This document shows positions 134-58,411 of a stretch of DNA of 64,000 nucleotides, one piece after another; the stretch's first letter is position 1, and every line of letters begins with the position of its first letter. Source of the stretch: Eledone cirrhosa (Eukaryota); the NCBI GenBank assembly GCA_964016885.1, contig OZ024743.1, forward strand, positions 307,272,001 through 307,336,000, written 5' to 3'. The notes under the pieces are model-generated. The model did not search any database, was not told the DNA's origin, and worked only from the letters and a program-made list of their open reading frames with translations. The position numbers and the translations under genes are program-made.

Positions 134-300
134 GTATATATATATAATAAGACAAACGACCTGTAACACACCTTTCGCAGATGGTTGGCCCAAGGTCACC
201 CATGAAAGTTGTGGACCTGACTCCAGCATCGATCTGCTCATCAGACTAGTGGTTCAACAAAAAATAAATTCACTAAATCACATACACTAATAAATATATA

Positions 301-376
<76 letters not shown>

Positions 377-383
<7 letters not shown>

Positions 384-890
384 CGTGTATACGAACAGCA
401 ATGTTACAGGTAGTGAGACGTGGGCGCTGTCTGTTGAAGACTTGCGTAGATTAGAAAGAAACGAAGCCTGCATGCTCCGATGGATGTGTAATAGTAATAT
501 ACGCGAATGGCAAAGCATAAATGAATTGAGAGAGAGACTGAGCATAAGAGGAATCAAATGCTGTGTGCAGGAGAGGAGGTTGCGTTGGTATGGACATGTG
601 ATGTGTATGAAGGATGACAGCTGCATAAAAAGGTGCAGAGCACTAGAAGTCAATGGAAACCTTGGAGTGGGGAGACCCAAGAAGACCTGGGATGAAGTGA
701 TAAAAGCCGACCTTACTGTAAATGAGGTTGGTGTTAGGAAGGGCATCCAGCTGTAGAAATCAAGCCAGAATCAGTTCCCGTATGAGCAAGACATGGTCAG
801 CCGACCGGACACTGCCCACAACAGGACAACCCGTCTAACCCATGCTAGCGTGGAAGAACGGACGTAAAACGGTGATGATGATGATGATGA
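377..890 (+). mobile_element. RTE LINE 3' fragment (divergent subfamily) with (GAT)n tail
   Basis: GSETW...RLERNEACMLRWMC...RRLRWYGHV...GRPKKTW, shared 3' UTR core and GAT tail. Flanked by (TA)n. Confidence 0.85.
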
Positions 891-1029
891 TATATATATA
901 TATATAGACACGCACACACATCTAAAGAGAGAGAGACACAGAGGAAGAGGCAGAAAGAGAGAGGTAGGCCGTTATACAGAGAGAGATACAATTAAAGTGT
1001 TAAATATTTAGAGAGAGAGAGAGTGACGT

Positions 1030-1505
1030 CCCACAGAGAGTGACAGTCTAGAATCGGCTTAAACTATAGATCCTTTGATCTATAGGAAGGTTTAACAATA
1101 TTGCTTTAGCTTTTATAAAGTCGTTTTACAGTCTTTGATTTCACAGAACAAAGAAAAATTGATACTATTTGAAATTAATCTACCCTCCAGCTTTTATCCA
1201 TATACTACTTACAGAGACCGTACTAATGAAGCTAAACACTTCAGAAGCAATTTTATACAGTAAAAGATCAATCTGACTATGGTTTTTTTCACATTTAAAA
1301 TCCAAGGCCAATGCTACCATTTAATCGGCAGTTTACTCGGCCCCAGCCTAATAAGGAAGTTTTATGATTGTTTTGTTTTTTTTGTCTCTCTCTCACACAT
1401 ATTACGGTCTCACCTCATACTAGACAACACATCCAATACAGTCATTTTCTCTTTTATCCATCTTCTCTTAATTATTCTCCCGGGGGAAGCTGGATACCTA
1501 AGCTA

Positions 1506-1506
<1 letters not shown>
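1030..1506 (+). mobile_element. Helitron-derived non-autonomous remnant
   Basis: TFKIQGQCYHLIGSLL (1291-1338) resembles the Helitron Rep/Hel N-terminal FKIQGQxYHxIGSLLP motif. Ends in a GC-rich subterminal segment plus CTAG (1503-1506) followed by T. 5' boundary approximate. Confidence 0.6.
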
Positions 1507-1540
<34 letters not shown>

Positions 1541-1543
<3 letters not shown>

Positions 1544-2472
1544 CAAAATAAGCAGTGGGGGAGGGCGCTCTGAAAGTACAGTAGCTAGAGTCAGAACTGG
1601 ATGGAAAAAGTTCAGAGAGCTTATACCACTATTAGCTGCTAAAGGGTTCTCCCTAAAAATGAAAGGCAGGTTGTACGATACCTGCATACGAACAGCAATG
1701 TTGCATGGCAGTGAGACCTGGGCATTGTGTGCAGAGGATATACGCAGACTAGAGAGAAACGAAGCTTGCATGCTCCGCTGGATGTGTAATAGTAATATAC
1801 GTGAACGACAAAGCATAAACGAACTAAGGAAAAAATTAGAAATAAGAGGGATCAGATGTTGTTTACTCGAGAGAAGGCTACGTTGGTATGGTCACGTGAT
1901 GCGCATGAAGGACGATAGCTGTATAACAAAGTGCAGGGCAATAAAGATAGACGGTAGCCACGGAATAGGCAGACCCAGAAAAACCTGGGACGAGCTGATA
2001 AATTCCGACCTCACACACTTACACCTCACCAAGACAATGTCACTGGACCGAGAACTTTGGCGGTACTCAGTAATAGAGAAGACCGGCCTTACCTAAATAC
2101 AAAGTAAAACCTACTACAGTCAGTAGGCATCTCTAACAAAATACACCCCCGTCCCACCCCATCCACACCGCCCCTTTCAATGTAAAGTTATGTTGGTGCC
2201 ACAACATCCAGGCCGAAACAAATGAGATCGTGTAGGTGTCACGTCAAAAAAACACACAGTTCACGCTGTAATGTGGCCATGTAGGCAACACAGTAAAAAC
2301 CTCCCAGCCCCACACTGTAAATGTGGTTGGTGTTAGGAAGGGCATCCAGCTGTAGAAAACCCGCCAGACAGTCCTATGCGAGCAAGATAATCACTCTTGC
2401 CTCAAGTGGGAAAACCCCCGTCCAAACCCATGCAAGCGTGGAACACGGACGTTAAACGTTGATGATGATGAT
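1541..2472 (+). mobile_element. RTE LINE, 5'-truncated copy inserted in (TA)n
   Basis: ORF C-terminus (DKISSGG...RRLRWYGHV...GRPRKTW), 3' UTR and (GAT)n tail. TA repeats on both sides. Confidence 0.92.
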
Positions 2473-2510
2473 ATATATATACACACACATACATACATGC
2501 ATGCATACAT

Positions 2511-2545
<35 letters not shown>

Positions 2546-4104
2546 TACATACATACATACATTCATACATACACACATATATATATACATACACACACCG
2601 ACAGATTTATATACAACTGCATTGTGGATAATGGTTACAACAACAACAACACCATTTACAATAATGAAGATGATGATGGTGATTTTTTTTGTTAATGTTA
2701 TTATCATTATTATAATTACTACTACATTTGGATCCAATAGAATTGTCATCTCTTTATAGGTACCTATATTAATATATGTCAGGTCACCAGTTGGTGCTAC
2801 TGGTAACATGTATCCCAGTACAACCTGTCTCATGGTCGGGTCGTTGGCGACTAAACTGGCAACCCCACCAAGGTTTCTTGGTGAGGAGAGTGACTTTGGA
2901 CATCCTGCGGGACTAAAAACAAAACCTGTCAAAGGGCAAAGGAGTTCTTAAGAGTCAATGGCCATCCAAAATCACCGTGAGAGATGACCCCTTAGCCTTT
3001 GTCAAGGCAGAATTCTAGGAGAAGGAAAACTCTGATATAATACCTGCAACCCTGATGATATCCAATGATGTTGACTTGTTCTTCTTTTTGGTAAATATCA
3101 TCTTGGTTAAGAGAGTGGGACTGGCTTTGGGCAGTGCCTTTGCTCACTATAAAAGCTTCACGGCACAGGCATTGCTTTATATCTGGAGATCTCTCTGCAC
3201 TTGTCGTTACATGGTACCATTTGCCCAGCACTATGTGTCAATAATTGTCACAAGTGTAGTGTTTGTACCAGAGTTTTCAAGTCGCTGGCTGGACTAAAAA
3301 GTCACACTCATTCAGCGTATCGGTAGGGGTTCTCCTACGTGGATATAAAGTAGTGGCCATACTCGAAAACGAGTTGGCAGCCACCATATTATTATATAGT
3401 CATAAACCATCCCATACCTGGTTGATTGTACTCTTACCGTACTTTGAGTATTAACTATTATTATCAAATCCCGCCGAGGTTAACTTTGCCTTTCATCCTT
3501 ACAGGGTCGATAAAATAAAGTACCAGTAATGTACTGGGTAATTGCTGGCCTTGTGCCAAAAAGTAGAAACAATTATTAATTCATCTTTCATAATTCTCCA
3601 TTAATATATTAACTTTAATCCCTAGCTGTTAAACCCATTATATTCCCATGTACCAACATTACTAGTATGACAGCCATTATTATTTTTGTTTTTAATTCTT
3701 TACTTCATATGAATGTATATGTATATATGTATATATAAATGTATATGTATGTAACATATATATGTGTGTCTGTGTGTGTGTATGTGTCTAGGTGTGTGTA
3801 TCTGTGTATGTAAACATATGTTTAATGTTTCTAGCATCACTATTATTGTCTTCACTATTGTAAATTGTGTTGTTGTTGTCATGGTAGTCGTAGTGCTGTA
3901 GCGATTGTCCACAATGTATATGTGTGTTTGTATATAAATGTATGTATGTGTATATATATATATATATTAGAAAGTGAGGTGTTTTTTACAAAATGAAAAA
4001 TAACCGAGATGTCCTACACGAGTGAAAGTATAAAGAAAAAGAGATGAAATCGAAAATGCAACTGAAGTCTTATTTTTTAAAAAAATATATATATTTATTT
4101 GGTT

Positions 4105-4142
4105 CCTTTACCGGTTTCGCAGTTCTTCTGCTTTTCAAATGG
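4105..4142 (-). ncRNA. Minimal type I hammerhead motif, U3-A8 core variant
   Basis: Minus strand reads CCAT-TTGAAAA-GCAG-AAGAA-CTGC-GAAA-CCGG-TA-AAGG. Confidence 0.55.
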
Positions 4143-4449
4143 CGAGTTGAGATGGAGGGTCTGTGGTTTTTCTCACATATATATATACTAATAAAGCTGA
4201 CGGCCATATGTATGTAACAAACTTTTCGCCAAACGGCTGAACCAAACAGCACCAAATTTGCACCATAGATGTAACTTTTTCCAAGTAAGAAAGTGAGGGT
4301 ATTTTTGTCTACTAAATTTTGTTAAAAGATTAAAGATATTATTTAAATATTCATTTCTTTAAAATTTTCAAATGTCAAGTCTGGCTGTCTGCATCTGTAC
4401 ATTGACTTCGCTATCTGTGCGTGTGTGTATATATGTATATGTAGTGTGT

Positions 4450-6311
4450 GTATCATTAACTGCTACAAGGGTAAAGGAGATGCCCTAGATAGGAGTAACT
4501 ATAGAAGCATTAAATTAATCGACCAGGTCATGAAGGTCACAGAAAAAGTAATAGCGCAACTCATCAGAGAGAGAATTGATCTAGATGAAATGCAGTTCGG
4601 GTTTGTGTCAGGTAAACGTACCACAGACGCTCTTTTCATTGTACGACAACTACAGGAGAAGTACCTAGCTAAAAGTAAACCCCTATACACTAGCTTTTGT
4701 CAACTTGGAGAAAGCCTTTGACAGAGTCCCCCGTTCCATTATCTGGTGGGCTCTTAGAAAACTAGGTGTTGATGAATGGCTTGTGAGAGCTATACAAGCC
4801 ATGTATAAAGAAACAGTCAGCAAGGTTAGAATTAACAACGAATATAGTGAAGAGTTTAGCGTAAAAGTTGGTGTTCATCAGGACTCCGTTCTTAGCCCCC
4901 TACTATTTATTATTGCCCTTCAGGCTATAACAGTGGAGTTCAAGACCGGCTGCCCATGGGAACTCCTAAACGCAGATGATCTAATGCTCATAGCTGAATC
5001 AATGGCTGAACTAGAGAAGAAATTCCAAACATGGAAGCATGGCCTAGAATCAAAAGGCCTTAAAATTAACCTGTCTAAGACTAAAGTTCTAGTTTGTAGG
5101 AAGGAAAATAGGGCGCCGGTCCCATCCGGGAAATGGCCATGCTCAGTGTGTAGGAAAGGAGTAGGTAGAAACTCCATTTTATGTCCCAAATGCAAAGTAT
5201 AGGTGCATAAAAGATGTAGTGGGATCACAGGTAAGCTAACTAAGAACATAGATTTTATATGTGGCCGGTGCTCTGGTGCAATAAGTAGCAGCAAGTGCCC
5301 ACAGAATACTAGCTCATTCCATTGCACAGATGGTTCTATAGAAATAGTGGACAGCTTCAGTTACCTGGGTGACAAAATCAGCAGTGGGGGAGGGCGCTCT
5401 GAAAGTACAGTAGCTAGAGTCAGAACTGGATGGAAAAAGTTCAGAGAGCTTATACCACTATTAGCCGCTAAAGGGTTCTCCCTAAAAATGAAAGGCAGGC
5501 TGTATGATGCCTGCATACGAACAGCAATGTTGTATGGCAGTGAGACCTGGGCATTGTATGCAGATGATATATGCAGACTGGAGAGGAACGAAGCTTGCAT
5601 GCTCCGCTGGATGTGTAATAGTAATATACGTGAACGGCAAAGCAAAAACGAACTAAGGGAAAAATTAGAAATAAGAGGGATCAGATGTTGTTTACTCGAG
5701 AGAAGACTACGTTGGTATGGTCACGTGATGCGCATGAAAGACGACAGCTGTATAAAAAAGTGCAGGGCAATAAAAATAGATGGTAGCCACGGAGTAGGCA
5801 GACCCAGAAAAACCTGGGACGACTTGATAAATTCCGACCTCACACACTTACACCTCTCCAAGACAATGTCACTGGACCGAGATCTTTGGCGCTACACAGT
5901 AATAGAGAAGACCCGCCTTACCTAAGTACAAAGTGAAACCTACTACAGTCAGTAGGCACCTCTAACAAAATACACCCACGTCCCACTACCCCCACCCCAT
6001 CCACACCACCCCTTTCAATGTAAAGTCATGTTGGTACCACAACATCCAGCCCGAAACAAATGAGGTCGTGTAGGTGTCACGACAAAAAAAACACACAGTC
6101 CACGCTGTAATGTGGCCGTGTAGGTAACACGGTAAAAACCTCCCAGTTCCACACTGTAAATATGGTTGGTGTTAGGAAGGGCATCCAGCCGTAGAAAACC
6201 AGCCAGACAGTCTTATGCGAGCAAGACAACCACTCTTGCCTCAAGTGGGAAAACTTCTGTCCAAACCCATGCAAGCGTGGAATATGGACGCTAAACGATG
6301 ATGATGATGAT
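4450..6311 (+). mobile_element. RTE LINE, 5'-truncated and inactivated
   Basis: RT motifs NYRSIKL, QFGF, KAFDRV, GVHQDSVLSP, NADD; PHD-type finger; frameshift near 4690 and stop at 5200-5202; GAT tail. Confidence 0.93.
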
Positions 6312-7020: not shown

Positions 7021-7058
<38 letters not shown>

Positions 7059-7662: not shown

Positions 7663-8452
7663 ACACAGACGCCTTATCGTTTGTTTATCCAAGCGAAGCT
7701 AGGTACATCAGCTATCATCATCATATATCTGGATGCCGTAGAACACGCCAATCGTAGCTGGGCCCCAACCAGACGGGCCAGCTAGTATATATATATATAA
7801 GTTTGAAGAATAGTCAGAGAAAATTTACCTAATTTTTCTTCTTAGTCTGTAGAAATTAACTAGATAAATAATCATTTAAATGGAGCTAAGTCTAAAATGT
7901 AAGTTTGAAGAAATAATAGATAAATGTTACCAATATTCTTCAAGTCTCAACTGTCAACACTTTTGCTCGTACTTTGTGGAAATGTCTAATCATTGCATTA
8001 TCCATGAGGCTTCAAGCTTATCAAGAGACTCCCTCAGTTACGACCAAAATTTTCAAAGTGATTGCTGCCAGTAACGAATTCAAAAGGGGTGAAAATCATC
8101 ACGTGGCTGGCGGTCAAGTTAAAATTGTTGTGAAGGGTAAATTCATTGCTAGAAGAAGCAGTTAGTTACTGTAAGGGAGTATAGAACAAAGTCATAAAGA
8201 ACATATATTTATTAAAACATAATCATAGATACATATATGACTGTGGGCTACATTCAACGGTGTCACCCGATGAATGAAAGAATTAAATAAATAATTATTA
8301 ATCAGAGCTATATTAAAATTATAAGTTTGAAGAACAGTCAGCTAAAATTATATATGTATGTGTGTGTGTGTGTGTGTATACACATATATACACACACATA
8401 CATATATATATACACATATATATACATATATGTATATGTGTGTGTGTATATA

Positions 8453-11400
8453 TAAAACGATGTTATAAGCTTTTCTGGGTGGGAAACGACGATGGGCTGG
8501 GTGGAGTAGGAATCATGGTAGCAGAAAAGTGGGCAGATAAGATAATAGACGTAAATAGAGTGAATGACAGAATAATTAAAATACGACTTGTCCTCAATAG
8601 AACTACGGTGACAGTAATATCTGCGTACGCACCCCAATCCGGACTGCCCGGCACTATAAAAGACAGATTCTATGAGACACTGATGCTAACTACCTCCCAA
8701 ATATCCGACAGTGACTATATAATTATTGCAGGCGACCTAAACGGTCACGTTGGACAACATTGTGACGGCTACGACGAAATCCATGGAGGCTATGGGTTTG
8801 GTACTAGAAATGAGGAAGGCTCCAGAATCCTGGAATTCTGTGATGCAAATAACCTAACTATCTGTAACACTAACTTCAAAAAACGTGACAATCACCTGAT
8901 CACCTATAGATCCGGGGAACACACAAGCCAGGTAGATTATATCCTTACCAGAAGACGTGACAGAGTGTCTGTTGTAAACACCAAATCCCTCCCCCATGAA
9001 GAATGCACCTCCCAACATAGACTGATAATTAGCGACCTCATAGTCAGGACGAGACGTACTCGACAGCAGAAGAGGACTATCCTCAGGAGAAAAATATGGA
9101 AGCTAAAGGACCCCACAGCCAGGAATAAATTTCAAAGCATATTACTTGATGCTTTCGACAGTAAGGAAGAACATTTAGAGTTGGACAATATAGAGGGAGA
9201 GTGGGAATTTCTGAAAGCAAACCTGCTGTTGGCGACAGACGAAGTCTGTGGCTGGAGCAGGCCTGTAGGCAGGAGGAGAGTAACATGGTGGTGGAACAGT
9301 AAGGTGGAGGGGTCAATTAAGGCCAAAAAGCAGGCTTGGGAAGTATGGCGGGATGGGGGAAGTAGAGAAGACTATCAAGTGGCCAGGAGGGAAGCTAGGA
9401 GACAAGTGTACTTAGCAAGAAGGGAAGCAGAGGAAAGAAAGTTCAAGCATGTTCTACAACGCGATGACCAAAAACGTGAGGTGTTCAGGATTGCTAGGCA
9501 ATGCGTCAAGGAAAACCGTGATATTGTCGGGGAGAGGTGTGTACTAAACGACGATGGCACACTTGCCATCACCAACGCTGATAAGAAGGTAGCTTGGAAG
9601 TGTCACTATGAAAGGCTACTAAATGAGGAGAATAAATGGGAGAAAGACAGTCTCCCCCATATCGACCCAATAGAGGGACCAGCAGTGTTAGTCGAAGGGA
9701 GTATAATAAGTAAGGCAATCAAGGATAGGAAGACGGGTAAGGCGGCTGGGCCTTCGGAAATAGTTGCTGAGATGCTGAAGGCATCTGGCACGGTGGGACA
9801 CACCATGGTCACCCGCATAGTTAACCAAGTCGGACAGAATGGGGTTGTTCCGAAGGACTGGCATAGCAGCATCATCGTTAACTGTTATAAGGGTAAAGGA
9901 GACGCCCTAGATAGGAGTAACTATAGAGGCATTAAATTAATCGACCAGGTCATGAAGGTCACGGAAAAAGTAATAGCACAACTAATCAGAGAGAGAATTG
10001 ACCTAGATGAAATGCAGTTCAGGTTTGTGTCAGGCAAAAGTACGACAGACGCTCTTTTCATTGTACGACAACTACAGGAGAAGTACCTAGCTAAAGGTAA
10101 ACCCCTCTACTTAGCTTTTGTCGACTTGGAGAAAGCCTTCGACAGAGTCCCCCGCTCCATTATCTGGTGGGCTCTTAGAAAACTAGGCGTTGACGAATGG
10201 CTTGTGAGAGCTATACAAGCCATGTATAAAGAAACAGTCAGCAAGGTTAGAATTAACAACGAATATAGTGAAGAGTTTAGCGTAAAAGTTGGCGTCCATC
10301 AGGGCTCTGTTCTCAGCCCCCTACTATTTATTATTGCCCTTCAGGCTATAACAGAGGAGTTCAAGACCGGCTGCCCATGGGAACTCCTATACGCAGACGA
10401 CCTGACACTCATAGCGGAATCAATGGCCGAGCTAGAGAAGAAATTCCAAACATGGAAGCACGGCCTAGAATCAAAAGGCCTTAAAATTAACCTGGCTAAG
10501 ACTAAAGTTCTAGTTTGTAGGAAAGAAAATAAGGCGGCGGTCCCTTCTGGGAAATGGTCGTGCTCGGTGTGTAGGAAAGGTGTAGGTAGAAACTCCATTT
10601 TATGTCCTAAGTGCAAAGTATGGGTGCATAAAAGATGTAGTGGGATCACAGGTAAGTTAACTAAGAACATAGATTTTACATGTGGCCGGTGCTCTGGTGC
10701 AATAAGTAGCAGCAAGTGCCCACAAAATACTAGCTCTTTCAATTGCGCAGAGGGTTCTATAGAAATAGTGGACAGTTTCCGTTACCTGGGTGATAAAATC
10801 AGCAGTGGGGGAGGGTGCTCTGAAAGTACAGTAGCTAGAGTCAGAACTGGCTGGAAAAAGTTCAGAGAGCTTATACCACTATTAGCTGCTAAAGGGTTCT
10901 CCCTAAAAATGAAAGGCAGGTTGTACGATGCCTGCATACGAACAGCAATGTTGCATGGCAGTGAGACCTGGGCATTGTGTGCAGAGGATATACGCAGACT
11001 AGAGAGGAACGAAGCTTGCATGGTCCGCTGGATGTGTAACAGTAATATACGTGAACGGCAAAGCATAAACGAACTAAGGAAAAAATTAGAAATAAGAGGG
11101 ATCAGATGTTGTTTACTCGAGAGAAGGCTACGTTGGTATGGACACGTGATGCGCATGAAAGTCGATAGCTGTATAACAAAGTGCAGGGCAATAAAGATAG
11201 ACGGTAGCCACGGAATAGGCAGACCTAGAAAAACCTAGGACGAGCTGATAAACTCCGACCTCACACACTTACACCTCTCCAAGACAATGTCACTGGACCG
11301 AGACCTTTGGCGGTACTCAGTAACAGAGAAGACCCGCCTTACCTAAATACATAGTAAAACCTACTACAGCCAGTAGGCATCTCTAACAAAATACCCCACC

Positions 11401-11710: not shown

Positions 11711-14700
11711 TGTGTGTGTGTGTGACTATGTATACATTTATTTAATGTTTGATTATAATGTAGTATTATTTCTAGCATCATCATCATCATCTTCATTATT
11801 GTAAATGGTGTTGTTTATTGTTGTTGTTGCCTTTGATCACAACAGCATCATAAAAGAAAGCAGCAAATACCACCTTCATCACTAGACATTCTGGTGCTAG
11901 TCTGGGCAGGGGCAAAGGAACTGACAATTGCAGAGGAAGTAATGGATCACATGCTGAGATTTAGTGGTAAATATGTCAACAATTAAGTATTGGAACCTTA
12001 TCCAAAGCCTACAAAAATCAACCAATCAGAAGGCTGATATATCTACTACTAGAACCTAATAAATATAGAGATTCATATGCCTGCTGCCATCACAACAGGA
12101 TAGTAATACATGGCCAGCAACATATCCCATAGATTATATAACTGCACCTATGATCATGTAAGAATCTGATGAAGTCACATGCATAACCAAGTAACAGAAA
12201 TATATATCATGCAATAAAACAATTATGGTGAAATAATCCTGTTTTAACTATTAATCAACAACTCTTAGGTGGGATAAACTACTGACATGAAGTGCTTTTG
12301 GATCGCTCGGACCGGTTTATCATCAAGAAGTTACAAAGTAACAACTGTGAATAAACAACTTATATATTGCAAAGTTGGACCAACCATGTAAACTCTCATA
12401 TCTGAAGAAATGTCAATTAAGAGTTGGGATCTGAATCACATGATCAAACCCGAGCTGATCGATATGGAAACAATTTGTAATCATCATCATCATCATTTTA
12501 CGTCCGCTTTTCCCTGCTTGCAAGGGTTGGACGGGTCCTATTCAGCACAGCATCTCTCCACTTGTCACAGTCCTTCATCATCTCCTCTGTGAGTTTCAGC
12601 GATCTGTGGTCTGCTCTCACCACCTCCGCCCATGTTTTTCGTGGTCTACCTCTACTGCGTCTTCCTTCTACTGAGATTTCTTGGCACTTCTTTACCCAGC
12701 TGCAATTCTTAGTGTCCCTCTCTATATATATAGTGTATGTGATTCAGTGAATTTATAAGTTGTTGCTTATCATTTAGTCATTCCATTTAGTTAACCATGA
12801 TGTAATAGTATGAAAAGCACTCTACATTATGTAACTCATCCATCATTGATGTTGAATCCCGTGGCTGGCGCAGGAATGGAGTTAAATATCAATTTGATTA
12901 AAACAACAGGAGGCCAGACTGGTAACATTCTATATATATAATTCAATAGCCTGGTTACGTAAGATCCTGGCAACATCACCAGGTTTAGATTGCATTATTA
13001 GTTAATCACTAGAGGAATTAGAGCAAACATAAACAGAAAATATTGAAAATATTTGTTTCGAAGATGGCCTGCAAAATAGGTGTTATTGTTGCTGCAGACC
13101 ATCTCCAAACAAATAGCTCATCAATACAAAGCTTTGTGGGTTTGGTAGGTGCAACCAAGATGGGTGGTGGTGACATATATCCTGCTGTTCAAAGGTGAGG
13201 GACAATAAATTCTGTGTGAATACATACTGGCCAAAACCAGCTAAATGTGACAGTGGAGAAGATCAGATTAAAGGAGATATGTTCTAGGAGGGGTATACAA
13301 ATTTATAAAAAATTTAATAAAAAATAATAAAAATTTACCAAATTTAATAAAAAGTAATGAAAGTTGGGTTGAATGTCATGTTAAGTAAATGAACAAAAAT
13401 GAATTACGAAAAATATATTATGTAAAACTACATTAAGAAAAAAGAATACATACAAACAAAATATAAAATTTCTATTTTTTTTTTCTGAAATACAATCAAC
13501 TGCTGCTGTAGGAATCAAACAATATTATGATATAATCTAACAACTTAACCATCAGGCCATACACCTTCATACATACACACATATGTCATAATGACTGTTT
13601 AACGTCTATTTTCCATGTTTGTATAGGTTAGACAGTTGTCGCATGTTGAGGTCAGATAACTAGGTCTTGTTCATACACTTTGTTTTGGCTTGTTTTCTAC
13701 AGCTGGATGCCTTTCCTAATGCCAGCCACTCTACAGAGTGTACTGGGAACTTTTGTAGTGGCACATACACACACACACGTGCACACACATATATATATTA
13801 ACCCATGCTACCATGGAAAAATGGATGTTAAACGGTGATGATGATGACTCCATGAACATAGCTTTGTTACAGCTATTTACACAACAATACAAGATGGAGA
13901 GTACCTGTAATTCAAAAGGCCAGCCTTAATATTCCCTGTGTAATGCTGAATCTTCTTGACAATTACTTTAAGGGCACACGTGTCTGTGGAATGCTCAGCC
14001 ATTTTCATGTTCCACTCATCGAACCCCTGGAACATTCATTTTCAAAACCAAAGGAGATCAATTCACCTAGATCTTGTGGTACTCCAGTATGGTCATAGCT
14101 ATGGTAGCTGAAAAAACGAACAATGGATACAAACAGAGAAATAGACTAAAAGAGAATTTCATAAACAACTAGGGAAAAAGTAGGGAATGGTATTTAAATC
14201 ATTAATATTATTTGATTGATCTTTACTTATTAAAAATATCATGGTTGATGAAAGTTTATAGGCTGAGAAAGATACTCTCCTGGAATGACCAAATGAGGCT
14301 TACTTTTCAACATAATCCCTGGAAATAAACAATGCAGTTATTAATAAGAGTTGAAATTAATGCATGCAAGATTTCACAGCTCTAGCATCACTCCTTCATA
14401 GTTAGTCAACCTATGAACTTTTTAGCTGACCCTCGTCACTACAACCATCGAAAAATCTTTCGTGTAAAATATTTCCCATTCACAGCTAGTGTCAGATTTA
14501 GGACAAATGAGGCCCTGTGCTAGTTAAGTTATGAGGCCTCTTACTTGGACCCTGAAGGAGATTAAAAAAATGTTTCACCCACCCCCACATTGTGCCAGGG
14601 TTATAAATCAATAAATTATTTAGAATTTTAAAATATTTGTAAATGTTTTTATTTTACTCTTTCTATAATAGTCCAAATCTTATCCATCATCATCGTTTAA

Positions 14701-17167: not shown

Positions 17168-17216
<49 letters not shown>

Positions 17217-39335: not shown

Positions 39336-39465
39336 TTAATAAATAACGATAGTAACTGACATATGGATTAGTAGGAATCCATTAAAATAGGTGGCTTTGT
39401 TTCATAGAACCAGAGCATGTTTGACAAAGTTGATATGAAAAGAATTAAATTAAAAGTGGTCTTAC

Positions 39466-41355: not shown

Positions 41356-41848
41356 CTGACAAAGATTGAAGCGGAACACATGATGGATAAAAGCTGAGTG
41401 GTTTCTATCAGACTGAAACCTTTGTTGTCCAAAAAACTAGCATAGATACTAGTCATAAGGTTCATATTCCCACTGCTGAGACAAAGAGGAAGTAAAAACA
41501 GGCTAAACATAATGTTCTTGAATACACTGAAATCCAGCAGCTTTTTACTGGACTTCAGTTTAATTGGTAACTGAAGAATGTTGAATTTCTTGTTGGTTTT
41601 ATCAGCTTGGATCTGACAAAACAGAAGAAATAGTCCAAAGGGACAAATATTAAAGACAAATCCTGACAAAATGAGAAGGCAGCTTTCCCAAGAATACACA
41701 TTGAGGATATATGGAATAAAAAGTGGAAATATGACTCCACCAATTGGTCCAGCTGTTGATAATATCGAGATAAAGATGGTTGCTCGGTTGCCAAAATAGA
41801 TTCCAACAACTACAAATATGGTCACATACACAAGAGAGCATCCAACTC
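41356..41848 (-). CDS. SLC16-like exon, TM4-8 (GVGCSLVY...YFGNRA...YSWESCLLILSG...LLDFSVFKN...SIFVR)
   Basis: ttttAG / GTAAG boundaries. SLC16-type motifs YF.xR.A, YxW..xLL and LDFS.FK. Phases match flanking exons. Confidence 0.88.
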
Positions 41849-43095
41849 CTAAAAAGGAAAAGAAATATGTATTAACTCTTAACATCCTGCACCACATGAA
41901 ACCACATTAGCAAGGCATTCTTGAAAAATATAAAACAGTTCAATGACTGTGTCCCATTAAAAACTTAAGCTCTTAACTCTAATACTGTCAATTTTCTCAA
42001 TGATCTGTTCTCTAGTAAAGATCTTATAAACATTTGAATTAACAAAACCATTTTTAGATATTTTCTGCAAGAATGATAAGAGCTCCACATGCCACCAAAC
42101 CAACATAAATGAAACATAAGAGTCAGTTTACTTAATGGCCCCAGTTGACAGGATGGAGAAAACATTGCCTTGGAGGATGGTCTGGAACAGTCACTCCACC
42201 TCATGGATCTCATACTTGCAAGCAGTTAGCTCCGCTCTGATAGCAGTGAGCAGGGATGTAGTCCGGGGTCAAGTTCAGCCTTATCACATGTTAATTTTGA
42301 TACAGAATTATGGTGGAAAGGAGAGAATTAAATCAATTCTCCCACTTGCCCAAATTTTGGGTTTTGTGTTAATGTTATAACATTTTTATCTATTAGGGAG
42401 TTGAACTTGCAGAATCATTAGAGTTTCAGAAGAAATCTTCTGGCTCTACATTCTGAGTTCAAATCCTGGCAAGATCAGTGTTACGTTTTATGGTGCTGGG
42501 GTCCTTAAAATAAAGTAGCAGTCAAATACTGGGGTTAATTTAACTCTTTCATGACCACATTTCTAATGAAATACACTATATTTTAATTAATTAATGAAGA
42601 ATTTTGATGGATTTACTGAAACTATTAATTATTTAATTACTAAGATAGTATCTCAATGTATGGTTCATCATCATCATCATCATCACCGTTTTACGTCTGT
42701 TCTTCCATGCTAGCATGGGTTAGATGGGAGTTCTTATATAAAATTATGTTGGAAGATTTTAATTTAAATTGGAAACCTTTAAAATGGGTGGTTTTATTTC
42801 ATAGAACCAGAGATGGTTTTGGTCAGGTTGGTAACTAAAGGATTAATCAACTTTCTCCTCCTCCTTCCCTCCCGTCAAATTGCTGGCCTTGTGCCTGGTG
42901 GATTGGCAGTATCGGTAGAGTGTCAAACACCATGCTTTGCAGCATAGAGTTATGGACCTTTACGTTCTGAGTTCAAATCCCACCAAGGTTAACTTTGCCT
43001 TTCATCCTTAAGGGGTCGATAAAATAACGTACCAGTAATGCATTGAGGGTAATTGCTGGCCTTGTGCCAAAAGTAGAAACAATTATTATACTTAC

Positions 43096-44069: not shown

Positions 44070-45977
44070 CACTGGTCAACAAAAAAATATTCATTTCATG
44101 GTTCTGGTATAATTTAGTATGATTCTGGGGTAATCAAGTGTGCAGAATCTGAATATGACAACAGTTAAGCTGTATCGGGTCTAGTTTTCGAGAATCAGCA
44201 TATCCATGTTTATGACCTATAGCTATGTGGCTCATATTACTTCATCCAATTGTATCCACTATATTTAGTTGTTAACTAATTTATACTTACTGCTTTTGTT
44301 TCAGATCACAGAATTGTAACTATCCTCAGCTATTCTTGGATAATTCACAACAATTTTGACTAGTGGGAGAGATGGAGCGCCGGAAATGTGTAAATGACCC
44401 AGACCGATTTTGCTATATTTGTGGAATACTTACCCCAGAAAGCATAAAGAAACCAATCACAAAAGCAGTTCGAGTAAACTACAAATGCTACTTCAAATGT
44501 CCATTAAGAGATCAGGACAAGAAATGGGCGCCTCATATAGCGCGTAGGTCATCTGTTAATCACCTAAGTGAATGGAAGAATGGGAAACAAAGTTCTGGTT
44601 TGCCATTTGCCGTACCAATGGTGTGGTGAGAACCAAGAGACCACAATAACGATTGAAACTTCTGCCATATAAACATCCAAGGAATAACTGTGAAGACACG
44701 AACTACACTTCAATACCCCAATATCTCGTCAGCAATCCGACCAGTACCTCACAGTGACGAATTACCTGTTTCAGTTCTACCTGCTGAACACGAGCTAATC
44801 TCTGATTCTGATTCCAGTAGCACCCCTATTGATGATGACTATCAAGATGAACATGAGACAACTGAACCCATACCATTTAACCAGGAAGCTCTTCACGATC
44901 TCATTAAAGACCTACATTTGTCTAAAGAAAAGGCAGAGCTCCTGGGATCAAAACTGAAGCAACGAAATCTGCTGGAACCTGGTGTCCGCATTACAACCAC
45001 TCGTCATCGTCATAAACAACTTAATTAGTCTACTTCTAGGTCTTCAGACTGGTTACACAAAGCATATGTGTATTCTATGTTTGTGGAATAGTAGAGCAGA
45101 TGCGGAGCACTACATGAAGAAGGATTGGCCAACAAGACCAAAGGATGCACCCGGTAGATTCAACTGTCTGTACAAACCTCTCGTGTATCCAGAAAAAGTA
45201 TTCCTCCCTCCATTACATCTCAAATTAGGCTTGGCCAAAAACTTTATTAAAAGCATGGATCATACAGGTAATGGGTTTCAGTACTTGTGTAAGAAATTAG
45301 GTAGAGTGGTATCTGAAGCAAAGTTAAAAGCAGGGGTTTTGAATGGTCCTCAGATTCGTATGCTGGTTAATGATAGTGAGTTTACGAAAACACTAAACCC
45401 TTTGGAGATGTGACACAGAACTTTCTTAGAAACCACCGTGCAGACAACTATAAAGAAATTGTTGAAACCATGATACAAAATGATCGCGCTCTGGGTTCAC
45501 GAATGTCGTTGAAGCTTCATTTCTTCCATTCTCATCTGGATTTCTTCCCAAGTAATGTAGGAGACATCAGAATATGGAGAGAGGTTTCACCAGGACATTG
45601 CCATAATGGAGGGTAGGTATCAGGGTCGGTTCAATCCCAACATGATGGGCGACTACTGCTGGACACTGCAACGTGAGGAGAGCCAGCAAAACAAGCGTAA
45701 AAGCAAAATCCAGAATTTTTTTTAGAAATGTTTTGAAATATTTTATGTTCAGAATGTTGTTCAGTAAAAAATAAATAAAAATATGTTTATATATTTTTAT
45801 TAATAAGTTAATATGTTTATATCTAAGTCATCATATGTTACACAATGGATAAACAATGCAATACGAGGAACATATTTTCGATCTCATATTAAGGCATTCT
45901 GGTGCGATAGCAAAGTATGAATATCAAAACTGAATTTAGTGCTATGAAATTAGTAAGATGCACATGTAAGAACAGTG
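44070..45977 (+). mobile_element. Chapaev3-like (CMC) DNA transposon, pseudogenised
   Basis: Termini CACTGGTC.../...GAACAGTG with TAA 3-bp TSD on both sides. Transposase fragments CVNDPDRFCYICG, WAPH, YPNISSAIRPVPHS, LSKEKAELLGSKL, GYTKHMCILCLWNSRA, LPPLHLKLGL, MSLKLHFFHSHLDFFP, GERFHQDI. Family assignment is from memory of these motifs. Confidence 0.78.
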
Positions 45978-48953: not shown

Positions 48954-48986
<33 letters not shown>

Positions 48987-49456
48987 AGACCCCCCCCCCC
49001 ATTTGGTCTTGACTAACTGTAGGTTTGCACCTGGCATTGCTTCTCTATGACACAAGTCTAGGTAAGGTGGTTTGTGGAAGACTAGTAGTCACCCATGCAT
49101 GCCAGTTTCCTCTCTCCTTGTCATGGGAAACTGACCTCCAAGGGCAAAGGCCATTACAGCTTGGCAACAGTGTTGTTGCAGGTGAATGACTCCTCTTGGA
49201 TGGGATGCTAATCCATTACAGGGCTAACTCATTTTTTGTAGCTGGGTGGGCTGGAGCTACATGAAAAAGAGTGTTTGGCTCAAGGACACAATGAGCCAAC
49301 TTGTCTGATCTTGAGCTCAGTGTCACTTTGTGTAAATGGCAATTGTGTAAATGGCAATTGTTTTTGTTAGCTCATAGTCTCCTGGTGGTAAATAAATCAG
49401 TAAACAATATAAAATAGACAATAAAAACTTATTCTATAAAAATTAATATTTCTATA

Positions 49457-50647
49457 TAACTAAGAACACAGATTTTACATGTGGCCGGTGCTCTGGTGCA
49501 ATAAGTAGCAGCAAGTGCCCACAGAATACTAGCTCTTTCAATTGCGCAGAGGGTTCTATAGAAATAGTGGACAGCTTCCGTTACCTGGGTGACAAAATCA
49601 GCAGTGGGGGAGGGTGCTCTGAAAGTACAGTAGCTAGAGTCAGAACTGGATGGAAAAAGTTCAGAGAGCTTATACCACTATTAGCAGCTAAAGGGTTCTC
49701 CCTAAAAATGAAAGGCAGGTTGTATGATGCCTGCATGCGAACAGCAATGTTGCATGGCAGTGAGACCTTGGCATTGTGTGCAGAGGATATACGCAGACTA
49801 GAGAGGAACGAAGCTTGCATGCTCCGCTGGATGTGTAATAGTAATATATGTGAACGGCAAAGCATAAACGAACTAAGGAAAAAATTAGAAATAAGAGGGA
49901 TCAGATGTTGTTTACTCAAGAGAAGGCTACGTTGGTATGGTCACGTGATGCGCATGAAAGACGACAGCTGTATAACAAAGTGCAGGGCAATAAAGATAGA
50001 TGGTAGCCATGGAGTAGGCAGACCCAGAAAAACCTGGGACGAGCTGATAAATTCCGACCTCACACACTTACACCTCTCCAAGACAATGTCACTGGACCGA
50101 GACCTTTGGCGGTACTCAGTAACAGAGAAGACCCGCCTTACCTAAATACAAAATAAAACCTACTACAGTCAGTAGGCATCTCTAACAAAATACACCCCGT
50201 CCCACCACCCCCACCCCATCCACACTGCCCCTTTCAATGTAAAGTTATGTTGGTGCCACAACATTCAGGCCGAAACAAATGAGATCGTGTAGGTGTCACG
50301 ACAAAAAACACACAGTCCACGCTGTAATGTGGCCGTGTAGGCAACACGGTAAAAACCGCCCAGTCCCAGACTGTAAATGTGGTTGGTGTTAGGAAGGGCA
50401 TCCAGCTGTAGAAAACACGCCAGACAGTCCACGCTGTAATGTGGCCGTGTAAGCAACATGGTAAAAACCTCCCAGCCCCACACTGTAAATGTGGTTGGTG
50501 TTAGGAAGGGCATCCAGCTGTAGAAAACCCGCCAGACAGACCTATGCGAGCAAGATAACCACTCTTGCCTCAAGTGGGAAAACTCCCGTCCAAACCCATG
50601 CAAGCGTGGAACATGGACGTTAAACGATGATGATGATGATGATGATG
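49457..50647 (+). mobile_element. RTE LINE 5'-truncated copy with 8-bp TSD and duplicated 3' UTR segment
   Basis: TSD ATTTCTAT at 49448-49455 and 50648-50655. C-terminal ORF 49567-50145. Confidence 0.93.
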
Positions 50648-52650: not shown

Positions 52651-54307
52651 ATAATAATAATGAAATTATTGTGTACAGTGCTCAGGTGCACTACAACTCA
52701 TCAAAGGTGCATGTATAGTACATAGAATAATGTACAAATGTCAGGAAAATAAACAGTGTATGAGTCATGATATAATAACAATAACAATAATGAAATATTG
52801 TGCACAGTGCCCAGGTGCACCACAACCCATCAAAAAAATGCATGTACAGTACATAGGGAAATGCACAAACATCAGTAAAATGAACAGTGCACGAGTTATG
52901 ATACACACATGTGTGCATGTGTATGGAAGGGGCACATCAGGTGTAGTTTTGGCGTATTTCGGGAAGCATGAGTGTCTTAAAGGATGCAGTGTCTCGGCAG
53001 CTAACAATTGACGCAGGCAGTTTGTTCCATGCCTCAGCAACTCTGAGCGTGAAAAAATGTCTGCGAAAGTCATGGGAGCTGTGCTGTTTTCTTATCTTGT
53101 AGGCATGTCCACGTGTGTTAGACACATGGAGATCAAAGAGGCGCTCAGGGTTGCAGTTGGCGAGATGGTTAAAAACTTTGTGGGTATTCACCAAGTCCAT
53201 TGCCAGACGTCGGAGCTTCAATGAATCCATGCCCAGGGAAGCAAGGCGTTCAGAGTATGGTAGGTGTCTGATGGAGGGTATGCGCTTGGTTGCACGTCTC
53301 TGAACAGTTTCCAGGAGGTCAATGTTCTGAGCAAGATAGGGGTTCCAGACTGATGATGCGAATTCCAAGTGTGGTCGCACCATAGCTGTATACAGTTTTA
53401 AATAGATGGCTGGAGAGCGGCTAACAAAGGTCTTGCTGAGTGATGCCAAGACACCCTCGGCCTTCTTGACAATCTTAGAGACATGCTTTGTCCAACGCAA
53501 ATCGTTGCTGACAGTAATGCCCAGGTCACGTTCACAAGAGGACTTTTTGATGTCAGTGTTGTGGAGGGAGTATGTGGACGCTGGATTTTTCCTTCCAAAA
53601 TGCATGGTGGTACACTTGTCCACAGCCAGCTTCAGTTGCCAGTCTGTGATCCATTGCTGCATTGTGTCCAGGTCTGATTGTAGGAAAGAGTTGTAAATTT
53701 CAGGATCAGTCCTTTTGATTTCAAGGTACAGCTTGATGTCATCTGCATATTTTAGTACCGTGGCATTCTGTAAGTTGGCATCTATGTCGTTAATATATGC
53801 CACAAACAAAAGAGGACCAAGAACAGATCCCTGTGGTACACCAGATGACATCTCATATGGTGAAGAATGCTGTCCCAGAACCGTGACTACTTCCTTTCGG
53901 CTGAGAATGAAGGATTTCAGCCAGTCGAAAAGATCATCCCTCACACCCATTGCAGAGAGTTTTGCCATAAGTCTTTTGTGTGGCACAGAATTAAAAGCCT
54001 TAGCAAAGTCAAGGTAAACAACATCCACCCATGAGCCGCTGTCAGTGATCCGGGTGATGTCCTCAAGGAACTCGATAAGCTGATCACAGCAGCTGGAGTT
54101 AGGGATAAATTCAAACTGTGAGGGCCGGATGAGGCTGTGAGAGCTCCAGAAGTTCCAAAGTGTTTCTCTGACACAGGATTCCATCAGTTTGGCCATACAG
54201 CTAGTAAGACTGACTGGACGATAGTTGACAGGTGACATGCGGTTGCCCTTTTTGAACAGGGGAATGACACTGGCAGTTTTCCACTGCTCCGGAGTAGCAC
54301 CATTGCT
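52651..54307 (-). mobile_element. CR1-type non-LTR retrotransposon, 5'-truncated, RT ORF open
   Basis: ORF 54238-52937: NYRPVSLTS, YLDFAKAF, GVPQGSVLGP, YADD, DLG, VRPHLEFASSVWNP, VQRRATK, TRGH, FFTLRV..WNKLP. Tandem repeats in 3' UTR and a (TTA)n tail. Possible TSD TGTATT(A/C)TAATA at 52639 and 54308. Confidence 0.88.
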
Positions 54308-55079
54308 TGTATTCTAATACAAAGTTCTCTTAGTAAATCCCTTGCTTTTAAATTACACCCAGCATGCGAGTGGCAAACAAAAGTTTGAGAAACTTGTAAA
54401 AACTTTGTAAAACGGATGAAATGGAAAAAATAATAACACAGTAGAGTTGTAAAACAAAAGCTATATACTCAACAACACTTAAAACCTTCTAAATATCAAA
54501 ATATTAAAGCTTCATAAATATATTTTATACGCATGAGAATTTCAAAACCACACTATCTATACATAATGTGTTGATTAGCTGCCTTGTCTTATAAATGAGG
54601 TTTGAATTTTTGCCCATTTCTCACACTTAAAATAGGAGTCGACTTATACTCAAGTATATATGGTAATTTTCTTTCTAGATTTTTACACCTAGAAATTAGA
54701 TGTGTACATTATACAGAAATAAATGTCACCTACTTTTTCTTGGTTCTAGATGTGTAGAAATATTTGGGATGGCATAAATAAATTATATCTATTGTCAGAT
54801 GATGATAATGATGAAGATGATGATGATATGTGTGTGTTGGACGTCTGTTGATTCCAAAGATGAGTGTCCTTGTTGTTTGAGAAACAGGGAAGCCTGCTTA
54901 TGAAATTGATATGTAAGTGGCTAAGCATTTCATAGATACATGTGCCCTCAACATAATTCTCAGGGAGAGTCAGCATGAGACAGTGTATGACAAGGATGGA
55001 CCTTTGAATCACAGATAAAACTCATTTTTTTTTCCAGTGAAATGATGAAATTAAATATTTATTTAGTATATTCACTGTT

Positions 55080-55715: not shown

Positions 55716-56752
55716 TATCGGTGGTTGTTAACTAAATACAACAAAATTTGTAAGTAATGTTTTTATATGAGATTATCAGAAAATGTAATTGTCATCTTTT
55801 ATAAAATAAAATTGTGATCTTTTATAAAATGACTGACAGTAAAATAAAAGCGAAAGAAAATTATTTTTCACCAGTTCAATAATTCTAGAAGGATAAAAAA
55901 ATAATGAAATTCACAGCTCACACCCATACAGGTTTAATTGATGAGTTTGCCTATCATTGGATGTTTCTTTGGTATTGTAATGTTAGGGGCTCCAGTTCTA
56001 TCATGGAAAACAATGTGAAATGAGGATCTTGCTGAAGAACACAATATACCACCTGGTCCAAGAATTGAACCCACAACCTTATGATCATGAGTTCATTATA
56101 CATGAGAGATAGTCTTTATAGTATTCATTTTCCATAATTATAGGTGTACACTATACACAATAATTAGGGGTGTACATTATACGTGAATAAATGCATTGTT
56201 TATTTCCCATAATAAGGGATGTATATTATATATGAATAAATACAGTATTCATTTCCCATAATCAGGGGTGTACATTATACACGAATAATTAAGCATGTAT
56301 ATTATACACAAATAATTAGGGGTGTATATTATACACAAATAAATAGGTGTGTACATTATACGCAAATAAATACAGTATATATTTTAGGAGTAACTAAGTT
56401 CATTCTGAAGCTGACTTTGATTATGATTATTTAATACAATAAAGAGTGGATTTAGCAACTCTGGTCTGATCCTTCAAGTTATTTATTTTCAGAATAGTCC
56501 TTCATCTGAACCAAAGTTCAAGTTCTGTCACACTTTTATCTCCTCAAAGAATTATAAAATATGTAACAGAAATACACTGCGTATGTTCCATGCACGCAGT
56601 TATACAAATGAAATTCTGTATTGATGTATCTAATATAATATATTGCTTTATCAAACCACTAGAGATGCTAAATAGGACATTAAAACCATTAAAATACCTA
56701 GGAGAGCTCCTGTAAGATGTAACCTTATAGGAGGCCAGATAGACCTGCATAG

Positions 56753-56793
<41 letters not shown>

Positions 56794-56846
56794 ATTTAAC
56801 ACTTCACTGCTCGCAAGTGTTTTTTAAGCTTCATATCATGTCTCCC

Positions 56847-56917
56847 TATTTTATCTGATGAGAACGCAAATATCATCCCATGATGATATTTGTTTTTGAA
56901 ATGCGCATAATAAAATA
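56847..56917 (+). ncRNA. Type I hammerhead ribozyme motif (Penelope/retrozyme-type)
   Basis: Stem I TATTTTAT/ATAAAATA; CTGATGA core at 56855; stem II with an 11-bp perfect CAAATATCATC/GATGATATTTG helix; GAAA at 56898; palindromic stem III A-TGCGCA-T; cleavage triplet AUA. Confidence 0.75.
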
Positions 56918-57402
56918 TTTGGAACTCTTTTAACCATCTTTTGATCTTATATTATATATATATGTATATATATATATATATATATATAAATATATATATA
57001 TGTAGGATAACAATAAATCGTTAAAGGTAATCCGATAAGTGTCTGTGAAAACTACTTATCATGGACAGTTTAAGCATACGGTGCTATGTGACTCAACAAG
57101 AGGTTTACTTGGGTGACGAGTTTATGACTTCACTTGTATTCCTATGTAAATATATCTTGGAGTAATAAAATTAATAATAATTTCTGATGAAATGATTGAA
57201 CTTATATGTATTTTAAATTGAATTATGCTGTCTCCAGTGTTTAGCAATTTATAGACAACTCTATCATGGAAACAATTGTTAGACTGTAAATAAATCTCCT
57301 TGTCTGTACTGTTAACCATGTTATTCTTCACTTTTTTAAAATATATATATATATATATATAAGCCTTGTTACTCTGGAATTTCATCTGTGCACTCACAGA
57401 GT

Positions 57403-57743
57403 CATCATCATCATCATCATTTCATTTTACGTCCGCTTTCCTTGATTGCAAGGGTGGGATGGGAACTGATTCTGGCTTGATTTCTACAGCTGGATGCCCT
57501 TCCTAACACCAACCTCATTTACAGTGAGTGCTGGGTGCTTTTTTGCCGTGGCACCTCCACGACCACTTTGCAATGGAATGATAGGGACCCCAGTCCCTAT
57601 CATCTCATTTCTACAGCTGAGTAAACTGGAGCAATGTGAAATAAAGTGTCTTGCTCAAGGAAACAACACATCACCCGGTCTGAGAATTGAACTCACAACC
57701 TTGCGATTGCAATGCCAATGCTCTAACCAGTAAGCCATGTGGC
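57403..57743 (-). mobile_element. tRNA-derived SINE family A
   Basis: Reverse complement of 38659-39000. Confidence 0.8.
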
Positions 57744-57877
57744 TAAGTATATATACAAATATATATATAAATATATATATATATATATCCAAAATTAAGG
57801 GTGTCATGTCCGAGAGACATGCACCATATCCACTGTAGAATAAGCTCAAAGATTCCAATGAATAGATCTGAGCATTT

Positions 57878-58162
57878 TATATCAACTAGAAATTGATTGA
57901 CACATATATATATCTAAAATAAACACATGAAACAATCACAGGGGATAATTTGTAAAGTGTGTAAGCACACACAGCTAGGTAGGTAACTAATTAAAGTTTA
58001 ACTAGAACTTCAAATATAGATACCTTTTAAAATGATTAATCTTTCTTGTATATATTTCATTAAAGAAATATATTTCTTTAAATATTACAAATTATCCCCT
58101 GTGATTGTTTCATGTGTTTATTTTAGATATATATATGTGTCAATCAATTTCTAGTTGATATA
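57878..58162. repeat. 78-bp perfect inverted repeat with 129-bp spacer
   Basis: 57878-57955 is the reverse complement of 58085-58162. Confidence 0.9.
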
Positions 58163-58175
58163 TATATATATATAT

Positions 58176-58295
58176 ATAGGAACCAGTAAGACCCCGACAG
58201 CTGAGCTCAAGCCGTTTCGACGGCTAATTCTGGACGTCCAGAATTAGCCGTCGAAACGGCTTGAGCTCAGCTGTCGGGGTCTTACTGGTTCCTAT
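58176..58295. repeat. 120-bp perfect loopless palindrome
   Basis: The 60-bp arms were checked base by base. Centre GGAC|GTCC at 58235/58236. Confidence 0.95.
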
Positions 58296-58371
58296 TACCC
58301 ACTCTACTACCTCAAGTATTGAGTACTTTGGTGCGTTATGGTCCACCTGGTTCCTTACCACATTTCCTTCG

Positions 58372-58411
<40 letters not shown>

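What the first reader, a model, noticed from the sequence alone, without database searches (positions are those of the whole stretch)
135..58410. Window-wide pattern: short ORF-less islands in (TA)n tracts carry hammerhead motifs and fold-back ends
At least four sequence-unrelated 150-210 bp islands bounded by TA microsatellites contain hammerhead cores or halves (147-293, 3967-4176, 56791-56947, 58176-58372). The 56.7-58.4 kb block is a chain of such islands. Inference: a diverse group of small ribozyme-carrying retroelements (solo pLTRs or retrozyme-like) uses TA microsatellites as landing pads and is mobilised in trans, since no PLE RT or GIY-YIG ORF is present here. I cannot tell from the sequence whether these families are already catalogued.
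Basis: partly seen in the sequence, partly recalled or inferred. Interest (0 to 1): 0.75.

Follow-up and report, generated by a model that had tools for sequence, protein, structure and literature searches.

The report
Penelope retrotransposon stubs in TA repeats
These short inserts are very common end pieces of several Penelope-type jumping genes that land in TA repeats and carry a whole or partial hammerhead ribozyme motif, not a separate class of ribozyme elements, and their fixed start points likely mark where each element's RNA begins.

Summary
The islands are real and multi-copy, and hammerhead (HHR) motifs are enriched near (TA)n in 480 kb of genome taken at round-number positions. They are pseudo-LTR ends of Penelope-like elements (PLEs), not an independent retrozyme class. 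Island 58236-58372 is 137/137 identical to the end of an intact 3.54-kb tandem Hydra-clade PLE. Island 3968-4176 follows an RT + GIY-YIG ORF elsewhere. Island 56791-56947 follows a Hydra-like endonuclease remnant. No parent ORF was found for 147-293. Only 56847-56917 is a complete, well-paired HHR here; the rest are decayed or halves, and none was found between 4.2 and 56.7 kb. TA targeting, pLTR HHRs, the U3-A8 core, inverted ends and one-sided tails are published. I did not find this in print: copies start at one fixed place per family, 29-30 nt after a TATA-like box in 3 of 4 families, and not at the ribozyme cut. About 95% of one subfamily lacks the HHR 5' half. Likely cause: RT primes internally on both cut strands and runs off the mRNA 5' end. 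No RNA data could test this. The scan noted the same pattern in other windows and genomes.

The parts
147..293 (-). F1: old PLE-type end. CUGAUGA core 244-238, GAAA 176-173, stem III decayed; 269-289 is an inverted piece of the family's 3' tail
   Evidence: relatives 77-89% identical; parent ORF not found
3968..4178 (-). F2: stub of a Neptune-type PLE end. UUGAAAA (U3-A8) core 4138-4132, GAAACCGGUA 4118-4109; starts at -211, inside the family's modal start (-214..-204)
12733..12930 (-). Fragment downstream of the HHR of a further family (no HHR in the window copy), joined to an F1-type tail
   Evidence: an HHR core lies upstream in 3 of 4 relatives, read by eye
56792..56952 (+). F3: PLE end with a complete type I HHR (56847-56917; core 56855-56861; GAAA-palindrome-UA 56898-56909); starts at the family's modal start (about -162)
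57002..57340 (.). F5: decayed PLE-type end. Inverted tail piece (about 57002-57167, -) plus a direct arm (about 57180-57337, +) with CUGAUGA 57184-57190 and GAAACAAUUGUU 57269-57280, long loop II
   Evidence: relatives 70-87%; read by eye, does not pass the descriptor
57362..57747 (.). Abundant repeat without an HHR (not a PLE end as far as tested)
   Evidence: matches in 68 held loci; no HHR
57789..58162 (.). F6: head-to-head PLE-type end. Long arm 58076-57789 (-), short arm 58085-58162 (+, 78 nt, 100% inverted); only the HHR 3' half (58058-58045, -)
   Evidence: 5' half (CUGAAGA or UUGAAAA core) read by eye in relatives L024 and L158
58176..58372 (.). F4: head-to-head stub of an intact Hydra-clade PLE. 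Short arm 58235-58176 (-, ends at -77), long arm 58236-58372 (+, ends at 0); both start at -137; HHR 3' half 58253-58275

Best explanation
The islands are the short 3' pseudo-LTR ends of several Penelope-like retrotransposon families inserted in (TA)n, and they are likely run-off cDNAs, made when the element's reverse transcriptase primes inside the front copy of the pLTR and reaches the 5' end of the mRNA. Steps: (1) Shown: autonomous parents exist elsewhere for F2 and F4, and a remnant for F3. (2) Shown: arms end at one of two fixed 3' sites per family (F4 0/-77, F2 0/-61), joined to TA. (3) Inferred from PMC11167929: these are the two internal RT initiation sites, and the GIY-YIG enzyme cuts and primes both strands. 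(4) Shown: 5' ends pile up in a narrow window unrelated to the HHR cut. (5) Inferred: that window is the Pol II start, 29-30 nt after a TATA-like box. (6) Inferred: the two cDNAs, read from one template, are joined head to head and give the fold-back. (7) Inferred: the HHR is a passenger in the stubs and acts, if at all, on full-length tandem transcripts.
For: F4: 137/137 identity to three units of a 3.54-kb tandem array with an open 786-codon frame. That protein has RLRW, DKT, YRDD, CxCx5C, VIYQC..YIG, CxxC and CxH, as described for Hydra. F2: directly downstream of an RVT_1 + GIY-YIG ORF with CGRSNCGTC, and followed by a long new frame in L099. F3: same-strand Hydra-like endonuclease remnant 1.1-1.6 kb upstream in 3 of 3 loci fetched for it. 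Fixed starts. F4: 28 of 49 long arms and 27 of 37 short arms start at -146..-130, and 2 and 2 go beyond -150, in 181 loci not chosen on the 5' half; 550 of 12,189 copies of two haplotypes keep the HHR 5' half. F2: 47 of 64 arms at -214..-204. F3: 15 of 43 at -165..-158. F1: 23 of 35 at -183..-164. TATAWAW: the only exact match in the 400 nt upstream lies at -30 for F1 and F2; a 1-mismatch box lies at -29 for F4. In F4 the stop lies in loop II, past the stem II 3' strand. 7 of 30 ORF-leading pLTRs also start at -141..-127, and in 8 of 30 rows (7 insertions) an ORF-start piece is followed by a second copy starting at the same boundary. TA follows 47 of 49 and 34 of 37 arms. In L166 and L066 each arm holds sequence that the other lacks (-1534 against -455; -938 against -420), so neither is a plain DNA copy of the other.
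Against: No transcription start was observed: the one RNA run served gave a single contig outside the boundary. F3 has no TATA-like box within 45 nt, and 20 of its 43 arms are spread between -188 and -847 with 3 longer still. One F4 subfamily reads TATTCAAA. The F1 mode (-178) was chosen by me at the upper edge of a blurred cluster, so its -30 spacing is partly circular. The F2 and F3 loci were chosen as best hits to the window copy, which excludes shorter copies. I saw no extra cap-derived G at junctions (by eye only). The D. virilis Penelope promoter is reported as internal and TATA-less (PMC2377424, passages). Both arms share the haplotype in 41 of 43 pairs, against 30% expected at random, so they are not from two random RNAs, and self-priming or later conversion is not excluded. 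No parent ORF was found for F1; F5 and F6 parents were not sought.
Confidence: 0.62

Rival explanations
1. The stubs are PLE ends, but they are themselves transcribed from an internal promoter and re-mobilised in trans as SINE-like solo pLTRs.
For: It would give the same fixed 5' end. An internal promoter is reported for D. virilis Penelope (PMC2377424, passages), and pLTR-driven trans mobilisation for Adineta (PMC3846280, passages). Short copies outnumber long ones about 20 to 1.
Against: The two haplotypes first seen only in short copies have long counterparts. Stubs lack the TATA-like box. The same boundary recurs in ORF-leading pLTRs.
Confidence: 0.15
2. The fixed 5' end is an RT stall at an RNA structure or a bound protein near the hammerhead.
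For: All boundaries lie within about 70 nt of the HHR core.
Against: The position relative to the HHR differs: about 30 nt, 69 nt and 40 nt upstream of the core in F1, F3 and F2, but inside loop II in F4, 10-20 nt past the base of stem II where a stall would be expected (inference). The spacing to the TATA-like box is constant in 3 of 4 families.
Confidence: 0.12
3. Non-LTR retrozymes: HHR-to-HHR monomers, circularised and inserted as tandem repeats.
For: Type I HHRs; retrozymes are proposed to derive from PLE pLTRs (bioRxiv 10.64898/2026.07.22.740005, part 1 of 5 read).
Against: No short head-to-tail HHR repeats at the islands; ends are not at the cut; most F4 stubs have half an HHR.
Confidence: 0.03
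4. The fold-backs arise by self-priming of one cDNA (proposed for head-to-head palindromes in PMC3846280) rather than by priming of both cut strands.
For: Arms share the haplotype in 41 of 43 pairs; the junctions are near-perfect palindromes.
Against: The short arm stops at a fixed second site and meets TA (34 of 37). In L166 and L066 each arm has unique sequence. One pair (L073) differs at two diagnostic sites. PAc extends both strands in vitro (PMC11167929).
Confidence: 0.08

Closest known systems
Hydra-clade PLEs, including Hydra-1_Obim (Craig et al. 2021, PMC8557442; outline, passages, section 11, supplement search hits)
   Same: C-terminal GIY-YIG, DKT, CxCx5C linker, CxxC and CxH motifs, (TA)n targeting, HHR in the pLTR; the F4 protein resembles Hydra-1_Obim by eye from the N terminus on.
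   Different: F4 is 3.54 kb (the paper says generally under 3 kb), has RWR for RWK, and has a U3-A8 HHR with a 6-bp stem III, unlike the C3-G8 HHR listed for Hydra-1_Obim; so it is a different family.
Minimal HHRs of metazoan PLEs (Cervera and de la Pena 2014, PMC4209133; parts 1-2 of 4 read)
   Same: Type I cores, palindromic stem III, the U3-A8 variant, mostly single motifs attributed to truncated PLEs, and opposite-strand pairs 100-700 bp apart.
   Different: No fixed 5' boundary is described in the parts read; F4 has a long stem III, and the MFE fold of the full motif is the three-way junction as a monomer (z -0.08, so no more stable than shuffles).
PAc of Anolis (Frangieh et al. 2024, PMC11167929; parts 1-2 of 4 read)
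   Same: Two internal RT start sites that define the tail, both strands cut and extended, AT-rich target, HHR not needed for insertion in vitro, product length set by the template's 5' end.
   Different: Poseidon clade, with a tail that corresponds to the 30-40-bp type, against 61-85 nt here; genomic run-off stubs at the transcription start are not described in the parts read.
Inverted-pLTR Penelope insertions of Adineta vaga (PMC3846280; passages)
   Same: Head-to-head pLTRs, one-sided tail, solo pLTRs, a putative TATA box and Inr within the pLTR.
   Different: Explains palindromes by self-priming and solo pLTRs by recombination or deletion; low copy number.
Non-LTR retrozymes (PMC7229834, passages; bioRxiv 10.64898/2026.07.22.740005, part 1)
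   Same: Type I HHR, 150-450 bp size range, link to PLEs.
   Different: Retrozymes are head-to-tail repeats with a complete HHR per unit; these islands are single or head-to-head and often lack half the HHR.

Membership tests
EN+ Penelope-like elements | [quoted passage not shown] | tested here: met
   F2: Pfam RVT_1 (E 1e-6, just under the cut-off) and GIY-YIG (above the cut-off). F4: motifs only, no Pfam or PDB hit, weak BLAST to the F2 protein (E 2e-6). F3: remnant.
EN+ Penelope-like elements | Parent ORF for F1, F5 and F6 | tested here: inconclusive
   F1: none on the right strand in 5 + 20 loci; F5 and F6 not searched genome-wide; assigned by anatomy only.
EN+ Penelope-like elements | Tandem or partial-tandem pLTRs, inverted 5' copies, one-sided tail | tested here: met
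   Tandem array and 306 exact pLTR-ORF junctions; two 3' ends.
EN+ Penelope-like elements | Type I HHR in the pLTR | tested here: met
   Motif and pairing in F1-F4 relatives.
Hammerhead ribozyme | Self-cleavage | not testable with these tools
   No assay; only the F3 window copy has all the elements.
Hydra clade (F4) | DKT, CxCx5C, flanking CxxC and CxH, (TA)n insertion | tested here: met
Hydra clade (F4) | RWK motif and length under 3 kb | tested here: inconclusive
   RWR instead of RWK; unit 3.54 kb; the paper says 'generally'.
Hydra clade (F4) | Placement in an RT phylogeny | not tested
   No tree built; published proteins were compared by eye only.
Neptune type (F2) | CX2-5CxxC linker before a C-terminal GIY-YIG | tested here: met
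   CGRSNCGTC; Neptune versus Nematis not resolved, and the DKG region was not in the frame examined.
Non-LTR retrozymes | Head-to-tail repeats, each with a complete HHR | tested here: not met
Non-LTR retrozymes | Abundant unit-length circular RNA | not testable with these tools
   No raw RNA reads served.

The most novel reading that the evidence does not exclude
Tens of thousands of stubs are a PLE counterpart of retroviral strong-stop DNA. They map both the transcription start and the two RT start sites of each family. In F4 the promoter sits inside hammerhead loop II, so the mRNA begins with half a ribozyme and only its 3' copy can self-cleave, leaving a 41-nt terminal redundancy (-138..-97) that could allow an LTR-like strand transfer.
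Probability: 0.45. Interest if true: 0.55.

Novelty: new member of a known kind. Interest (0 to 1): 0.3.

Why it matters
The pattern itself is ordinary PLE debris. If the fixed starts are transcription starts, assemblies alone give the mRNA 5' end, the RT start sites and the share of abortive insertions for each PLE family. That makes the open question of how PLEs make tandem and inverted copies, and what the hammerhead is for, directly testable. The intact, 100%-identical F4 array is a good candidate for the first in vitro study of a Hydra-clade, microsatellite-targeting element.

Tried and rejected
Rfam found no hammerhead. DNA searches with island 4 and with its upstream sequence returned nothing because very common words are skipped. 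A canonical CUGAUGA upstream of the island-4 half gave 8 hits with unrelated spacers, which I rejected as mostly chance or inverted-arm junctions; the true core is U3-A8. Ends at the HHR cut were rejected. A splice acceptor at the F4 boundary was considered and rejected: starts reach -144 and no constant upstream exon is seen. Two random RNA templates per fold-back was rejected. PLE ORFs seen near F1 copies (L139, L142, L283) were set aside as far upstream, on the other strand or not shown to be co-linear. RNA test: one RNA run, a single contig, no information. The DNA-like runs X2 and X4 show a depth step at the same boundary, but they may be the assembly's own sample and summed contig depth is no copy number, so it was not counted as support. 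Pfam and PDB gave no hit for the F4 protein. Literature searches for a run-off or TSS explanation found none; subscription papers, Repbase and Dfam, and bioRxiv supplements were not searchable. The octopus repeat annotation (PMC13282606, passages) lists recently active Penelope families but has no ribozyme mention.
Full report
Observation. The window lies in a 3.0-Gb genome that the repeat content marks as animal (inference); I did not determine the host. My type I descriptor (CUGANGA or UUGANAA core) passes only 56847-56917 convincingly. 147-293 has a decayed stem III, 3968-4176 has a U3-A8 core with a stem I mismatch, and 58236-58372 is a 3' half. Rfam reports no hammerhead among 57 matches. 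The 56.7-58.4 kb block holds two more ends of the same build, read by eye against relatives, and one unrelated repeat. No complete HHR was found from 4.2 to 56.7 kb, so 'window-wide' overstates it.

Enrichment. In 48 stretches of 10 kb taken at round-number positions there were 25 hits against 1, 4 and 1 in three block shuffles. 19 of 25 had a TA tract within 260 nt downstream, against a 29.5% background. 6 of 244 TA-bounded islands carried a full HHR: about 12 times the per-kb rate of TA-free DNA (p 0.0014), with none in 20 shuffle rounds. Some hits are paired arms of one insertion, and three AT-rich hits look spurious; none were dropped from the counts.

Parents. F4: the window's 137 nt match exactly the ends of 3.54-kb tandem units with an open 786-codon frame. 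The protein has the Hydra signatures of PMC8557442 section 11, though Pfam and PDB give no hit. The supplement lists an octopus Hydra family with (TA)n preference and a different HHR. The full F4 HHR has a UUGAGAA or UUGAUAA core and folds as a three-way junction. F2 follows an RT + GIY-YIG ORF with a CX2-5CxxC linker and, in L099, precedes another long frame. F3 has a Hydra-like endonuclease remnant upstream on the same strand in 3 of 3 loci fetched for it. For F1 no parent was found. The window has no PLE ORF; its long frames look like APE-type LINE ORFs by eye.

Anatomy. Numbering runs back from the long 3' end. F4 arms end at 0 or -77 and meet TA in 47 of 49 and 34 of 37 cases. They start at -146..-130 in 28 of 49 and 27 of 37 cases, and the HHR cut at -97 attracts 5 and 0 (181 loci, 30 of them anchored on the tail; hits under 85% identity and at locus edges were left out). 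Genome-wide, 34,757 exact 3'-half matches compare with 2,171 for one 5'-half variant, and 12,189 with 550 for two other haplotypes. F2 arms end at 0 or -61, and 47 of 64 start at -214..-204. F3 has 15 of 43 at -165..-158 and F1 23 of 35 at -183..-164. All four window copies start inside their family's cluster. A TATAWAW box lies at -30 (F1, F2; the only exact one in 400 nt) or -29 (F4, one mismatch, 1 of 4 such sites). F3 has none, and one F4 subfamily has two mismatches. 7 of 30 ORF-leading F4 pLTRs start at the same boundary, while 7 run off the locus edge. Arms of one fold-back share the haplotype in 41 of 43 pairs (3 of 46 pairs were left out for rare haplotypes), yet two long insertions have unique sequence in each arm.

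Mechanism. PMC11167929 showed, for an Anolis PLE, cutting and extension of both strands, two internal RT starts that define the tail, product length set by the template's 5' end, and no need for HHR cleavage. Applied here (inference): the start sites lie in the front pLTR of the mRNA, so most events copy only 60-215 nt and run off the 5' end; two such cDNAs on opposite strands of a (TA)n cut are joined head to head. Longer copies need priming at the rear pLTR of a read-through transcript, or a template jump. Each insertion is flanked by TA on both sides, which would give the next family a target and explain chains such as 56.7-58.4 kb. I put about 0.95 on 'PLE ends' and about 0.62 on the whole run-off mechanism; the transcription start is untested.

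Known versus new. HHRs in pLTRs, the U3-A8 variant, solitary and opposite-strand motifs (PMC4209133), TA targeting, inverted copies and tails (PMC8557442; PMC3846280) are published. Retrozyme membership fails on tandem structure (PMC7229834; bioRxiv). The run-off reading was not found. I wrote it in the notebook before looking at earlier scan notes, which state the same for other windows and genomes; they are unchecked AI notes and are not counted as support. Verdict: new families of a known kind, interest 0.3.

Noticed in passing
window 8317-11238 (+): 973-codon open frame of an APE + RT LINE (RTE-like by eye); further broken copies at 1368-2096, 4347-5925, 32210-35189 and 49447-50145.
   Followed up: no
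window 39368-39781 and 41352-41906 (-): Frames that read like exons of a membrane transporter gene (MFS or monocarboxylate-like, recalled, not tested).
   Followed up: no
window 52937-54313 (-): 458-codon RT frame of a second LINE type (CR1-like by eye).
   Followed up: no
window 19483-20127 and 44657-45413 (+): DNA transposase-like fragments (piggyBac-like for the first, recalled).
   Followed up: no
L154 (G000:C1:91472900-91482800): Tandem array of 3.54-kb Hydra-like units, 99.8-100% identical, with open frames; likely very recent.
   Followed up: yes
L224, L225, L227, L229, L249, L251, L252: A pLTR plus 65-821 nt of ORF start is followed directly by a second stub starting at the same boundary, suggesting template jumps after run-off.
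   Followed up: partly
L145, L147, L149, L156, L158, L172, L177, L178, L180, L184, L191: At least eight further unrelated type I HHR sequences, C3-G8 and U3-A8, in 480 kb, mostly next to TA tracts.
   Followed up: no
L024, L158, L143 (relatives of window 57789-58162): The putative core reads C3-G8, U3-A8 and U3-G8 in three copies of one family, which looks like covariation of the 3-8 pair (by eye).
   Followed up: partly
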